DNA from: a virus
Taxonomy: Duplodnaviria > Heunggongvirae > Uroviricota > Caudoviricetes
Length of the DNA stretch: 64,000 nucleotides
Reading direction: 5' to 3' (one strand)
IMG/VR virus record: IMGVR_UViG_2875713109_000001
Numbering within the stretch: position 1 is the stretch's first letter; every line of letters starts with the position of its first letter. This document shows positions 32,776 through 33,993 of this stretch, piece by piece. The notes under the pieces are model-generated. The model searched no databases. It worked only from the letters and a program-made list of their open reading frames with translations, and was not told the DNA's origin. Made by a program: the position numbers and the translations under genes.

Positions 32776-33993
32776 TTATCCTTTCCGTTTACGGGCTTCG
32801 TTAATTTGTGTCTCAAGAATGCTTCGCGCCTGCGCGGTGGCAGCGGCCTTGTCCATTCCCTGACTCATGAAAAACTTTATGAGGTTGTTCGCCTGCGTTT
32901 GCAGGGCTTTTTTGAGAGCGTCGGCTTCAGCGCGAGCCTGGGCTTCCCTCACCCGCGAGGCTTTTAGTTCGGCATTCTTCCTGTTTGCCGTGGTGCGAGC
33001 TTTTTTTAATAACAGGCGAACGTTGTCCGTGGCGCTATCTTTTGCGCGTAGTTTTTTGCCTAATGCATCCTGAGATTTCAGATACAGCTCATACTCACGC
33101 GCAGCTTTAGCCTGATCCGTCGTTGTTGTCCGGTTGCGCGCGAGCGATTTAGCCAGTTCGCCTTTGAAATAGGTTGTTGTCTTCCGCTTGTCATCGCCGA
33201 AGGCTACCTGTTCAGCTGCTTTTTCCAGGGCAATAATGATGGCCTTGTGCCATGTGGGAGACTGAAAACGCGTCATAGCGTGCAAAACATGTTTGCAAGC
33301 CACACCAGTCAGATCAGGGTTGCGGATTTTGGGGAATGCATACTCTTTTGGCGGCGCGACAGCATAGTTACCAGCCGTGGCCATATAACGATACCAGTAT
33401 TGATGGCGTCCACAATCACAGTCGAAAGATACCCGGCCCTTGCAGAGATCGGCAGCGATTCGGGCTTTTTTCGCACCGTCTTCAGCAATTTCCTCAACGG
33501 CTTTATCCCATTCCTCAAATCGAATTCTGACACGGTGATGCTGGTGGACCGACTCATCCGAGGCATTAACAGATATCAATGCAAGGTTGTGTTTTAGCCC
33601 GAGGAATGTCGCGGCTTTGATCCCTGTGCCATCAGAAACCTTGTTGTTAGCGCGTTTTATATCAATGCTGGTGGACTGCGCCACCAGCTGAGCATAGGTA
33701 ATGCCGGGTACCGTGCTCTTGAATTTAGTTTTATGAGCCTGCCTTGAGGTGTTGAAACTGCGTATATCTTCGGGCGTAAAGTAGGTGCCATCTTTCTTTT
33801 TCCCAAGGCTGAGGAATGCCTCAAGTTCGCGGTTACGCATCCCCATAATCCTTGGGGTGAGTGTACGTCGCGCGTTTCGCCGATTCTGACGCTGCTGTTT
33901 ACGGATAAGATCGAAGACCTTGTTAAAGTCTTTTGCACTTAATCCATCAGTCTGATAGCGACCAAGGTTGTCGCGAGCATATTCAGTTGGCAT
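32776..33993 (-). CDS. SWIM-type zinc-finger-like protein (405 aa) with basic coiled-coil C-terminus
   Basis: CDCGRHQYWY...ACKHVLHA matches a CxC...CxH SWIM-like pattern. Confidence 0.4.
   Translation of the reverse strand: MPTEYARDNLGRYQTDGLSAKDFNKVFDLIRKQQRQNRRNARRTLTPRIMGMRNRELEAFLSLGKKKDGTYFTPEDIRSFNTSRQAHKTKFKSTVPGITYAQLVAQSTSIDIKRANNKVSDGTGIKAATFLGLKHNLALISVNASDESVHQHHRVRIRFEEWDKAVEEIAEDGAKKARIAADLCKGRVSFDCDCGRHQYWYRYMATAGNYAVAPPKEYAFPKIRNPDLTGVACKHVLHAMTRFQSPTWHKAIIIALEKAAEQVAFGDDKRKTTTYFKGELAKSLARNRTTTTDQAKAAREYELYLKSQDALGKKLRAKDSATDNVRLLLKKARTTANRKNAELKASRVREAQARAEADALKKALQTQANNLIKFFMSQGMDKAAATAQARSILETQINEARKRKG

What the first reader, a model, noticed from the sequence alone, without database searches (positions are those of the whole stretch)
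32776..33993. SWIM-type zinc-finger-like protein within the baseplate block
The CxC...CxH pattern is embedded in a 405-aa protein with a long basic helical C-terminus. This is an unusual domain for a structural gene cluster and may mark a DNA-binding internal or ejected protein.
Basis: partly seen in the sequence, partly recalled or inferred. Interest (0 to 1): 0.3.

Follow-up and report, generated by a model that had tools for sequence, protein, structure and literature searches.

The report
Split SWIM zinc finger, P1 gp25
This is gene 25 of a P1-type phage, an essential tail-assembly protein of unknown role. It is built around a strictly conserved zinc-finger-like site (a SWIM finger split by a 38-residue insert), and it is both the best-conserved protein of its operon and the only one not placed in the virion structure.

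Summary
Window 32776-33993 (-) encodes a 405-aa protein, 99.5% identical to phage P1 gp25 ("tail stability"). It carries C192-x-C194...C233-x-H235 and has a basic, helical C-terminus.

The four residues are invariant in 128 aligned homologs (down to ~23% identity) and present in 142 of 150 cluster representatives; the other 8 are fragments. The spacer is fixed at 36-38 residues.

Pfam SWIM does not match the native protein. After removing the insert by one fixed rule, 46 of 60 members match SWIM (best E 3e-8). In controls that keep the ligands and shuffle everything else, 0 of 60 match. A confident core model (pLDDT 95) has no PDB neighbour but matches small phage "SWIM-type" proteins in BFVD.

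The "baseplate block" label is imprecise: the operon is 26 (plug), 25, 7 (head stopper), 24 (tail terminator), 6 (hub), 5 (spike). gp25 is essential, weakly detected in virions and absent from both P1 cryo-EM models. It is strongly basic family-wide (mean net +31) and at least as conserved as the terminase.

My best guess (~0.35) is a low-copy zinc protein that binds polyanions or DNA in the unresolved neck or tail lumen and is needed for tail completion. A non-virion assembly factor is nearly as likely (~0.28). DNA binding and ejection remain untested.

The parts
32776..33993 (-). Gene 25 of a P1-type phage: 405-aa gp25 ('tail stability'); the stop codon is 32776-32778
   Evidence: ORF listing. 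99.5% aa identity to P1 gp25 AAQ14053. Full-length match to phrog_1722, E 6.9e-227.
33817..33993 (-). N-terminal basic region (aa 1-59) with a helix at aa 20-40 (FNKVFDLIRKQQRQNRRNARR); moderately conserved (R..A...L.P)
   Evidence: AF2 secondary structure. Net charge +7 over aa 1-60. Consensus.
33094..33816 (-). Conserved globular core (aa 60-300): helices, a three-stranded sheet (aa 125-159), two helices, then the zinc module and two further helices
   Evidence: AF2 with 128 sequences: pLDDT 94.9, pTM 0.91. No PDB neighbour. BFVD neighbours are small SWIM-type phage proteins. phrog_4315 aligns to aa 70-351.
33412..33420 (-). C192-D-C194, the first half of the putative zinc site, at the end of strand aa 187-192
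   Evidence: Translation. Invariant columns. Secondary structure.
33298..33411 (-). 38-residue insert between the half-sites (GRHQYWYRYMATAGNYAVAPPKEYAFPKIRNPDLTGVA). It carries invariant E217, P221, N225 and G230, and near-invariant R196, R202, Y203, A205, G208, K222 and L228
   Evidence: Spacer length is 36-38 in nearly all of 142 representatives. Invariant columns. Modelled at pLDDT 96-98 with the deep alignment.
33289..33297 (-). C233-K-H235, the second half of the putative zinc site, at the N-terminus of helix aa 234-242
   Evidence: Translation. C233, K234 and H235 are invariant. Secondary structure.
32779..33114 (-). C-terminal helical region (aa 294-405): a hypervariable, K/R/E/A-rich coiled-coil-like stretch ending in a small, weakly conserved helical module (...FFMSQGMDKAAATAQARSILE...)
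   Evidence: Translation. Helices. Net +13. Length and sequence vary across the family, and the end module is duplicated in P0149 and P0185. No Pfam family matches.
34003..34380 (-). Gene 26 (gp26, baseplate 'plug', T4 gp53-like); the constant upstream neighbour of gp25 homologs
   Evidence: phrog_1269, E 2.7e-40. P1 record. Cryo-EM assignment. Immediately upstream of the gp25 homolog in 140 of 160 loci.
34410..34428 (-). Late promoter LP26 (-22 box AAATGACTA, -10 TAGAAT) that drives 26-25-7-24-6-5
   Evidence: P1 record features mapped to the window. Sequence. Only exact match to the pattern in the window.
32044..32772 (-). Gene 7 (gp7), the hexameric head-side 'stopper' of the connector; very acidic
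   Evidence: P1 record. Cryo-EM. gp7 homologs have mean net charge -27.
31272..32075 (-). Gene 24 (gp24), tail terminator. The ORF as listed starts at a TTG; the P1 record's CDS is slightly shorter.
29629..31270 (-). Genes 6 (hub, 30254-31270) and 5 (spike, 29629-30261), the end of the operon

Best explanation
The ORF is P1 gene 25. Its product is an essential late morphogenetic protein. The conserved 240-residue core is an alpha/beta fold with no solved relative. That core is organised around a Cys2-Cys-His site that most likely binds one structural zinc ion. The site is a SWIM-type finger whose two halves are separated by a conserved 36-38-residue insert. The insert is rich in invariant polar, aromatic and basic residues (YWYRY...E..FPKIRNP.L.G) and probably forms the working surface. 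The core is flanked by a basic N-terminal helix and by a variable, charged helical tether that ends in a small helical module.

Shown: identity, conservation, motif, fold prediction, synteny and charge.

Inferred: gp25 is not one of the symmetric building blocks of the virion. I think it most likely is a low-copy, asymmetric component, or a factor that stays weakly virion-bound, acting at the head-proximal end or in the lumen of the tail. This is the same functional zone as gp7 (stopper) and gp24 (terminator), which carry the same 'tail stability' label. There its large positive charge and zinc-organised surface would bind a polyanion: the acidic channel walls and/or the end of the packaged DNA. 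This would allow stable tail completion and head-tail joining, and the protein might leave with the DNA at infection.
For: Identity and essentiality; the gene was found through amber mutants.

Zinc site: invariant C192, C194, C233 and H235; 142 of 150 representatives with a fixed spacer; chance level 24 in 100,000 shuffles; strand-end and helix-start geometry; SWIM is hit by 46 of 60 excised constructs against 0 of 60 shuffled controls; BFVD neighbours are named SWIM-type.

Not a symmetric structural subunit: absent from two P1 cryo-EM studies that model the neck, terminator, sheath, tube and baseplate, and no PDB sequence relative.

Virion association: 2 peptides, 8.4% coverage in CsCl-purified virions. 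That is the same as gp7, now known to be a real 6-copy component, whereas several true 3-6-copy proteins were not detected at all.

Same functional zone: same annotated label as gp7 and gp24, which form the stopper-terminator interface. The order 26-25-7-24-6-5 is kept at 25-35% identity.

Polyanion binding: net charge +14 to +46 in all 96 non-redundant members, with the core alone at +7 to +23. The neighbouring stopper averages -27.

Strong constraint: gp25 is the best-conserved protein of the module (mean 0.70 bits per residue, against TerL 0.55 and MCP 0.44). This is atypical for a simple chaperone.

Unresolved places exist: the tape measure in the tail cavity was not resolved.
Against: There is no direct localisation. 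The mass-spectrometry signal is weak, and a very basic protein could co-purify with DNA-filled particles.

Neither cryo-EM paper reports unexplained neck-channel density.

The one universal genomic partner is gp26, a baseplate protein. This points at least as much to the baseplate as to the neck.

In the ABMM1-like clade the two genes after the homolog show no detectable relation to gp7 or gp24.

No homology to known DNA-end or ejected proteins was found in Pfam, NCBIfam or PDB. The C-terminal module matches no DNA-binding family.

The 'tail stability' phenotype is known to me only from the record's annotation; the primary paper was not readable.

Zinc binding itself is inferred. AF2 does not model metals, and I could not measure ligand distances.
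Confidence: 0.35

Rival explanations
1. gp25 is a non-virion assembly factor (chaperone or catalyst). It transiently binds tail parts, for example helping gp26 lock the wedges onto the hub or loading the terminator and stopper, and then leaves. This would be like the roles proposed for T4 gp51 and gp26. The zinc core would be a protein-protein interaction module.
For: Absent from all resolved P1 structures. Gonzales et al. themselves suggest a chaperone or cofactor role. gp26 is the constant upstream neighbour in 140 of 160 loci. The build (globular head, variable helical tether, small end module) resembles scaffolds and chaperones. SWIM domains in other proteins mediate protein-protein contacts (established knowledge of MEKK1 and Shu2/SWS1, from memory).
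Against: It was detected in CsCl-purified virions, whereas the presumed chaperone PmgB was not. It is more conserved than TerL and MCP, which is unusual for phage chaperones. The uniformly high positive charge needs a separate explanation.
Confidence: 0.28
2. gp25 is a flexible peripheral baseplate protein or fibre adaptor, a functional analogue of T4 gp9. It would link the long tail fibres to gp16/gpR and keep the baseplate from firing early, and it would be invisible because the fibre region is poorly ordered.
For: The fibre region shows only weak density. The P1 preprint explicitly invokes an 'unknown protein' holding the fibres to gpR/gp16. In the ABMM1-like clade a fibre-like gene (phrog_4545) sits directly upstream of the 26-25 pair. 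Loss of T4 gp9 gives spontaneously contracted tails, i.e. a tail-stability defect (from memory). The virion MS level is similar to 6-copy proteins.
Against: The core is extremely conserved across hosts from Desulfovibrio to E. coli, unlike most fibre-associated proteins. P1's fibre genes lie in another operon. No fibre, collar or adaptor family is matched.
Confidence: 0.12
3. gp25 is an enzyme or modifier. The invariant polar set (D111, R196, R202, Y203, E217, K222, N225, K234) would be an active site that acts on a tail protein, on DNA or on the cell envelope.
For: Enzyme-like conservation: it is the best-conserved protein of the module, and its invariant residues are polar rather than only structural. 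Noise-level but recurrent Foldseek hits to kinase N-lobes appear in both libraries.
Against: No significant match to any catalytic family or fold. The kinase hits have probability <=0.18, TM <=0.17 and rmsd ~10 A, and kinases are heavily over-represented in the PDB. No nucleotide-binding motif is present.
Confidence: 0.08
4. The CxC...CxH pattern is not a metal site (a chance pattern or disulfide), or the protein is a nucleoid-type transcription regulator, as the 'MvaT' label on the Xanthomonas phage Rb1 homolog implies.
For: The native sequence fails Pfam SWIM. The spacer is longer than in typical SWIM fingers. One database record carries an MvaT label.
Against: The four residues are invariant across a family of 631 clusters. 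The shuffled control gives 0 of 60. Fold matches go to SWIM-type proteins. The protein is cytoplasmic, where disulfides are unlikely. No MvaT or H-NS family is hit in Pfam or NCBIfam. The gene is expressed late in a morphogenetic operon and carries a tail-specific annotated defect.
Confidence: 0.04

Closest known systems
SWIM zinc finger (Pfam PF04434; PROSITE ZF_SWIM; Makarova, Aravind & Koonin 2002)
   Same: C-x-C...C-x-H signature. CxC lies at the end of a beta-strand and C-K-H opens an alpha-helix, preceded by a Gly (G..CKH(V/I)L). Once the insert is removed, 46 of 60 members match the model, the best at E 3e-8.
   Different: The two halves are separated by a conserved, well-ordered 36-38-residue insert, instead of the short linker the Pfam model expects. 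As a result, no native family member reaches the model even at E<=10. The finger is embedded in a larger fold with no solved relative. The context is a phage tail/neck operon, not a helicase, transposase or kinase.
Small stand-alone phage 'SWIM-type domain-containing' proteins (e.g. Achromobacter phage Motura A0A514CSJ7, Burkholderia phage BcepSauron A0A482MLT0, Erwinia phage Y3 A0A2H4IBE8)
   Same: Significant structural similarity to the gp25 core: Foldseek probability 1.0, E 1e-5 to 1e-3, TM normalised to target 0.40-0.65 over 150-210 columns.
   Different: They are 139-256 aa and share only 12-18% identity. They lack the N-terminal region and the long charged helical tail. Their functions and genomic contexts are unknown and were not examined.
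P1 gp25 family itself (phrog_1722 / phrog_4315, 'phage tail protein', 'tail stability protein')
   Same: The window protein is a member: 99.5% identical to P1 gp25 and a full-length PHROG match.
   Different: Nothing differs. The family simply has no assigned mechanism or domain annotation: HHpred gave 'None >50%', and database names are 'hypothetical', 'tail protein', or the mis-labels FlhF and MvaT.
Virion DNA-end / injected proteins encoded among tail genes: Mu N (gp43, DNA circularisation protein) and T4 gp2 (DNA end protector)
   Same: Working analogy only. Like them, gp25 is essential for morphogenesis, encoded with tail/neck genes, present at low copy if at all, and basic. Such proteins are also hard to see in symmetric maps (properties of Mu N and T4 gp2 are from memory).
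   Different: No sequence or family relationship was detected. DNA binding, virion location and ejection of gp25 are all untested.
Non-structural baseplate/tail assembly factors (T4 gp51, gp26)
   Same: Essential for tail formation but missing from the final structure. The P1 proteomics authors suggested this analogy.
   Different: No homology. gp25 gave a virion MS signal and is far better conserved than such factors usually are.

Membership tests
P1 gp25 / phrog_1722 'tail stability' protein family | Full-length sequence homology to P1 gp25 | tested here: met
   99.5% aa identity to AAQ14053. phrog_1722 E 6.9e-227 over residues 1-405.
P1 gp25 / phrog_1722 'tail stability' protein family | Position in the late operon between gene 26 and gene 7 | tested here: met
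   Window order 26-25-7-24-6-5 downstream of LP26. The same order is found in distant relatives.
SWIM zinc finger (PF04434) | C-x-C-x(n)-C-x-H signature conserved in homologs | tested here: met
   C192, C194, C233 and H235 are invariant. The signature is present in 142 of 150 representatives. n = 36-38 is longer than in typical SWIM fingers (typical range from memory of Makarova et al. 2002).
SWIM zinc finger (PF04434) | Score above Pfam's gathering threshold on the native sequence | tested here: not met
   No hit for gp25 at E<=1, and none for any of 23 homologs at E<=10.
SWIM zinc finger (PF04434) | Similarity of the two half-sites and their flanks to the SWIM profile beyond the four ligands | tested here: met
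   Artificial test: with the insert excised by one fixed rule, 46 of 60 members hit SWIM (best E 3e-8; next family 12 of 60). With the ligands kept and all other residues shuffled, 0 of 60 hit.
SWIM zinc finger (PF04434) | Beta-strand(s) carrying CxC followed by a helix that starts at CxH | tested here: met
   AF2 model: strand at aa 187-192 ends at C192; helix at aa 234-242 starts at K234. The model's fold neighbours are named SWIM-type.
SWIM zinc finger (PF04434) | Binds one zinc ion | not testable with these tools
   Needs metal analysis of the purified protein.
Virion DNA-end-binding / ejected proteins (Mu N, T4 gp2 type) | Sequence or family homology | tested here: not met
   No Pfam, NCBIfam or PDB-sequence match.
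Virion DNA-end-binding / ejected proteins (Mu N, T4 gp2 type) | Present in the virion at low copy | tested here: inconclusive
   Literature only: 2 peptides, 8.4% coverage. Not modelled in the cryo-EM maps.
Virion DNA-end-binding / ejected proteins (Mu N, T4 gp2 type) | Binds DNA (ends) and enters the cell with the DNA | not testable with these tools
   Only indirect support: net charge +14 to +46 across the family.
Structural baseplate subunit | Occupies a defined symmetric position in the baseplate | tested here: not met
   Two P1 baseplate reconstructions list their components and gp25 is not among them. No homolog occurs in any PDB entry.
MvaT/H-NS-type nucleoid protein (label on the phage Rb1 homolog) | Match to an MvaT/H-NS family model | tested here: not met
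   No such hit in Pfam or NCBIfam. The label appears only in one record.

The most novel reading that the evidence does not exclude
gp25 is a virion 'pilot' protein that sits on the end of the packaged DNA in the neck or tail channel, holds it through the zinc-organised aromatic/basic surface, and is injected with it. Inside the cell it would protect the ends, or hold them together. It would thus be the P1-family counterpart of Mu N and T4 gp2, built on an unrelated, previously unrecognised split-SWIM fold. This could also identify the long-unidentified protein said to keep abortively transduced P1 DNA stable and non-recombining. That protein-bound-circle claim (Sandri & Berger 1980) is recalled from memory. 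The only part I could read is that most transduced DNA persists unintegrated for generations.
Probability: 0.12. Interest if true: 0.75.

Novelty: new variant of a known kind. Interest (0 to 1): 0.45.

Why it matters
P1 is the classical transducing phage and the type member of a large group of phage-plasmids that spread resistance genes. After two near-atomic virion structures and a proteome, gp25 is the one product of the essential 26-25-7-24-6-5 operon that has no place and no predicted domain; HHpred found nothing.

This analysis shows that gp25 is a zinc-finger-type protein with a split SWIM motif. It defines a family of at least 631 sequence clusters, found from enterobacteria to Desulfobacterota, and it is at least as conserved as the terminase.

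That gives experimenters concrete handles: four ligand residues and a conserved insert to mutate, and a metal to assay. It also narrows the questions to three: lumen or DNA-end protein, assembly factor, or fibre adaptor.

The case also shows how profile libraries and HHpred miss a known zinc-finger class when a long insert interrupts it. If gp25 does ride on the DNA end, it would bear on how P1 DNA, including transduced DNA, survives entry into the cell.

Tried and rejected
1. Direct family searches of the native protein found no domain: Pfam at E<=1, all 23 homologs at E<=10, NCBIfam, PDB sequences by phmmer and by profile.

2. A Foldseek search with the full-length model gave only noise. Even the pLDDT-95 core has no PDB neighbour (best E 0.53, TM <=0.17). 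The recurring kinase and PI3K hits were judged to be noise: probability <=0.18, rmsd ~10 A, and no kinase motifs.

3. I suspected the C-terminal end module was a SAP/HeH/Rho-N-type DNA-binding motif. The C-terminal 70 residues of 49 members gave no consistent Pfam family, so I dropped the idea.

4. I tested whether the 182-aa and 100-aa genes after the homolog in the ABMM1-like clade are diverged gp7 or gp24. hhalign probabilities were <=1.3%, so there is no evidence for this.

5. I looked for a second P1 late promoter inside genes 26 and 25 that could explain why CRISPRi on 25 and 26 was neither lethal nor polar. None was found. There is only one weak sigma-70-like site at the 3' end of gene 25, and the region has fewer such sites than the shuffled expectation.

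6. The 'MvaT' and 'FlhF' database labels on homologs have no family support and appear to be annotation artefacts caused by the charged helical tail.

7. The primary papers on the gene-25 phenotype (Walker & Walker 1983; Lobocka et al. 2004) are not held. The phenotype therefore rests on the GenBank note 'tail stability' and on secondary sources.

8. A literature search for SWIM in phage tails returned only 'swimming' hits. A search for 'tail stability protein' found no papers.

9. The search for related loci with the 59-sequence alignment failed because no stretch was conserved enough. I replaced it with two clade-specific alignments.
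Full report
**1. What is at the coordinates**

An ATG-initiated ORF of 405 codons runs from 33993 to 32776 on the minus strand.

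The surrounding 2.3 kb is 99.2-99.5% identical in DNA to phage P1 and to P1-like phage-plasmids such as RCS47, JL22, SJ46 and P7. The protein is 99.5% identical to P1 gp25.

In the annotated P1 record the ORF is gene 25, 'tail stability'. It is the second gene of a late operon read from promoter LP26: 26, 25, 7, 24, 6, 5. LP26 lies at window 34410-34428. The window is therefore a P1-type Punavirus element, and the finding concerns a gene that has long been known genetically but has no known mechanism.

**2.

The sequence CDC-(38 residues)-CKH occupies aa 192-235, which is window 33289-33420.

- The protein has four cysteines, and three are in the motif.
- The pattern appears in 24 of 100,000 composition-preserving shuffles.
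- It appears in only 2 of 139 six-frame ORFs of at least 100 aa in the window.
- The last ~110 residues are predicted as three long helices, with net charge +13. The whole protein is +34.

**3.

A word-indexed search found 480 relatives. The top 120 are all P1-like 'phage tail proteins', down to ~45% identity. In 23 of these, C192, C194, C233 and H235 are invariant, while the fourth cysteine (C184) is not.

An exhaustive profile search of 1.84 billion cluster representatives found 631 clusters at E<=1e-3 and 189 at E<=1e-30. Of the best 150, 142 carry CxC-(36-38, rarely 41-43)-CKH, and the other 8 are short fragments.

In alignments of 59 and 128 sequences reaching ~23% identity, only ten columns are invariant: G97, C192, C194, E217, P221, N225, G230, C233, K234 and H235. 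The Cys/His tetrad is therefore the most conserved feature of the family. The spacer between the two halves is fixed in length and carries four more of the invariant residues.

**4. Is it a SWIM finger?**

By Pfam's own criterion it is not. Neither gp25 (E<=1) nor any of 23 homologs (E<=10) matches PF04434. The P1 proteomics authors found no HHpred match above 50%.

Three independent lines nevertheless say it is SWIM-type:

- *Geometry.* In both AF2 models the CxC ends a beta-strand (aa 187-192) and CKH opens a helix (aa 234-242). This is the arrangement described for SWIM (Makarova et al. 2002, from memory).
- *Excision test.* I removed the middle of the spacer by one fixed rule: 25 residues, CxC, 6 residues, then 8 residues, CxH, 25 residues. 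After this, 46 of 60 diverse members hit SWIM at E<=1 (best 3e-8), and the next family was hit by only 12. Earlier hand-made constructs gave E 0.04, 0.02 and 4e-4, and one gave nothing. In a control that kept the four ligands and their spacing but shuffled all other residues, 0 of 60 hit SWIM. The similarity therefore extends beyond the ligands. This is an artificial construct test and should be read as such.
- *Fold.* A core model (aa 60-300) built with 128 sequences is very confident: pLDDT 94.9 and pTM 0.91, with the insert at 96-98. It has no significant neighbour among 350,542 PDB chains (best E 0.53, TM <=0.17). In BFVD it matches a group of small phage proteins at probability 1.0 (E 1e-5 to 1e-3, TM to target up to 0.65). 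UniProt names two of these 'SWIM-type domain-containing protein'.

My reading is that this is a SWIM-type zinc knuckle interrupted by a conserved, ordered 36-38-residue insert, set in a larger alpha/beta fold that has no solved relative. Zinc binding itself is inferred, not shown.

**5. Anatomy of the family**

- The N-terminal ~60 residues form a basic helix.
- Residues ~60-300 form the conserved core.
- The remainder is a hypervariable K/R/E/A-rich helical region of 60-140 residues, ending in a small, weakly conserved helical module that is duplicated in some members. That end module matches no Pfam family, including SAP, HeH or Rho-N types.
- All 96 non-redundant members examined are strongly basic: net +14 to +46 (mean +31), with the core alone at +7 to +23.

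**6. Context**

The 'baseplate block' description needs correcting. The 2026 whole-virion cryo-EM study assigns gp7 as the hexameric head-side stopper, gp24 as the tail terminator, gp6 as the hub, gp5 as the spike, and gp26 as a six-fold 'plug' that glues the wedges to the hub. The 2025 tail-baseplate preprint agrees on the baseplate parts. Neither study mentions P1 gp25.

Across 160 loci retrieved from viral contigs (505 and 109 confirmed hits for two distant clades):

- A gp26 homolog is the gene immediately upstream in 140 loci.
- One clade keeps the complete order 26-25-7-24-6-5 at 25-35% identity to P1.
- In the Acinetobacter ABMM1-like clade the string is TerL, a fibre-like protein, 26-like, 25-like, two small unknown genes, a P1-type capsid protein, and then the sheath. 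The two small genes show no detectable relation to gp7 or gp24.

The hosts span Enterobacterales, Vibrio, Xenorhabdus/Photorhabdus, Shewanella, Moraxellaceae, Xanthomonas and Desulfobacterota. The elements occur both on ~80-95 kb contigs and in chromosomes.

Measured against P1, gp25 is the best-conserved protein of the module. It scores highest per residue in 17 of 35 non-redundant loci. Mean bits per residue:

| Protein | Mean bits/residue |
|---|---|
| gp25 | 0.70 |
| gp5 | 0.67 |
| gp26 | 0.60 |
| TerL | 0.55 |
| gp6 | 0.55 |
| MCP | 0.44 |
| gp7 | 0.43 |
| gp24 | 0.24 |

. This agrees with a published remark that the homolog, mislabelled MvaT, lies in the region of highest similarity between two distant phages.

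**7. What is known experimentally (literature)**

- Gene 25 was defined by amber mutants and is counted as essential. A CRISPRi knock-down gave an EOP of only 0.11 and, puzzlingly, no polarity on genes 7-24-6-5.
- In CsCl-purified virions gp25 gave 2 unique peptides (8.4% coverage). This is the same as gp7, which is now known to be a true 6-copy component. gp26, gp5, PmgA and UpfC, all true components, were not detected at all. The authors left open whether gp25 is structural or a cofactor.
- In the cryo-EM maps the tape measure in the tail cavity and the fibres were not resolved. The preprint invokes an 'unknown protein' between the fibres and gpR/gp16.

**8. Mechanism: what I commit to and how firmly**

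Firm (about 0.85-0.9): this is P1 gp25, an essential late morphogenetic protein with a conserved Cys2-Cys-His metal-type site of SWIM character. It is not a symmetric building block of the baseplate.

Less firm (0.35): gp25 is a low-copy, asymmetric or loosely bound component acting at the head-proximal end or lumen of the tail. There its positive charge and zinc-organised insert would bind the acidic channel and/or the DNA end, and it would be needed for stable tail completion and joining. The arguments are:

- it shares the annotated defect class with the stopper and the terminator;
- it gives a virion MS signal;
- it is invisible in symmetrised maps;
- it is uniformly and strongly basic, next to a strongly acidic stopper;
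- its conservation is too high for a typical chaperone.

Rivals, in order: a non-virion assembly factor working with gp26 or the terminator (0.28); a flexible fibre or baseplate-rim adaptor of the T4 gp9 kind (0.12); an enzyme (0.08); and not a metal site, or a regulator (0.04). The constant pairing with gp26 is the main fact that the neck/lumen model does not explain.

**9. Comparison with known systems, and novelty**

The gene and its family are known, but they have no domain annotation. Public names are 'phage tail protein', 'hypothetical', or the errors FlhF and MvaT. None of the readable P1 papers mentions zinc or SWIM.

The closest known kind is the SWIM zinc finger. The family meets the signature, the secondary-structure arrangement and the profile similarity of the half-sites, but it fails the Pfam threshold because of the insert. 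I therefore call it a new variant of a known kind rather than a plain member.

It may work like Mu N or T4 gp2, or like T4 gp51 or gp26, but it is not a homolog of any of them.

**10. Verdict**

- The SWIM-type interpretation is supported, with the 'split finger' qualification.
- The idea of a DNA-binding, ejected protein is possible but unproven.

Interest is moderate at 0.45. This is a concrete, testable structural clue for the last unplaced essential protein of a classic phage's tail/neck operon, and an example of a zinc-finger class that standard tools miss.

Noticed in passing
window 32775-32804 (-), the 3' end of gene 25 just upstream of gene 7: This is the only sigma-70-like site in 31900-34500 (TTAACG-18-GATAAT, 9 of 12 matches). 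No second Lpa-type late promoter lies inside genes 26 or 25. It might relate to the published puzzle that CRISPRi roadblocks in 25 and 26 were not polar on the essential genes 7-24-6-5. The match is weak, and the region has fewer such sites than the shuffled expectation.
   Followed up: partly
window 32044-32772 (-), gene 7: The first ~70 residues of the stopper protein gp7 are extremely acidic (D/E-rich), and its homologs average net -27. This is the mirror image of gp25's +31. A direct electrostatic partnership between the two neighbours is possible but was not tested.
   Followed up: partly
window 34527-34772 (+), pmgL: This divergently transcribed 81-aa ORF, annotated 'putative morphogenetic function', matches DksA/TraR-like C4 zinc-finger proteins (phrog_54, E 1.7e-13). 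It is a second small zinc-finger-type protein right next to the operon.
   Followed up: no
window 34775-35353 (+), pmgM: Also annotated 'putative morphogenetic function', but it looks like a VRR-NUC / Holliday-junction-resolvase-type nuclease (Pfam VRR_NUC E 3e-4, below threshold; phrog_5702 E 5.9e-27).
   Followed up: no
window 35517-36179 and 36077-36703 (+), pmgO/pmgP: These two overlapping ORFs both give weak sub-threshold hits to the MptE-like family (E 6e-5 and 3e-4). They may be paralogs or a split gene.
   Followed up: no
window 57467-62343 (-): A marked low-GC island (35% against ~48%) holds a type III restriction-modification pair: Res (ResIII plus an endonuclease domain, 970 aa) and Mod (N6_N4_Mtase plus the EcoP15I C-terminal domain, 653 aa).
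   Followed up: yes
L003 6809-7888 (Xanthomonas phage Rb1, PQ569993) and P0148: gp25 homologs are mis-annotated in public records as 'transcriptional regulator MvaT' and 'flagellar biosynthesis GTPase FlhF'. The charged helical tail is the probable cause. A 2026 paper repeats the MvaT label.
   Followed up: yes
L002 6701-8479, L013 11108-12886 and similar loci (ABMM1-like clade): The ~590-aa protein annotated 'head vertex protein' (phrog_1014, unknown function) is picked up by an iterated HMM seeded with the P1 major capsid protein gp23. It is probably the major capsid protein of that clade.
   Followed up: partly
window 10309-14511 (-), genes 21, 22, 23: The P1 sheath (gp22), capsid (gp23) and gp21 proteins get no Pfam hit at E<=1e-3. 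This shows how poorly the P1 structural module is covered by general domain libraries.
   Followed up: no
family members P0143-P0225 ('CCCKH' clade; e.g. loci L084-L163): Many distant members have two extra cysteines directly before the CxH half-site (G-C-C-C-K-H). I did not examine whether these form a second metal site or an alternative ligand set.
   Followed up: no
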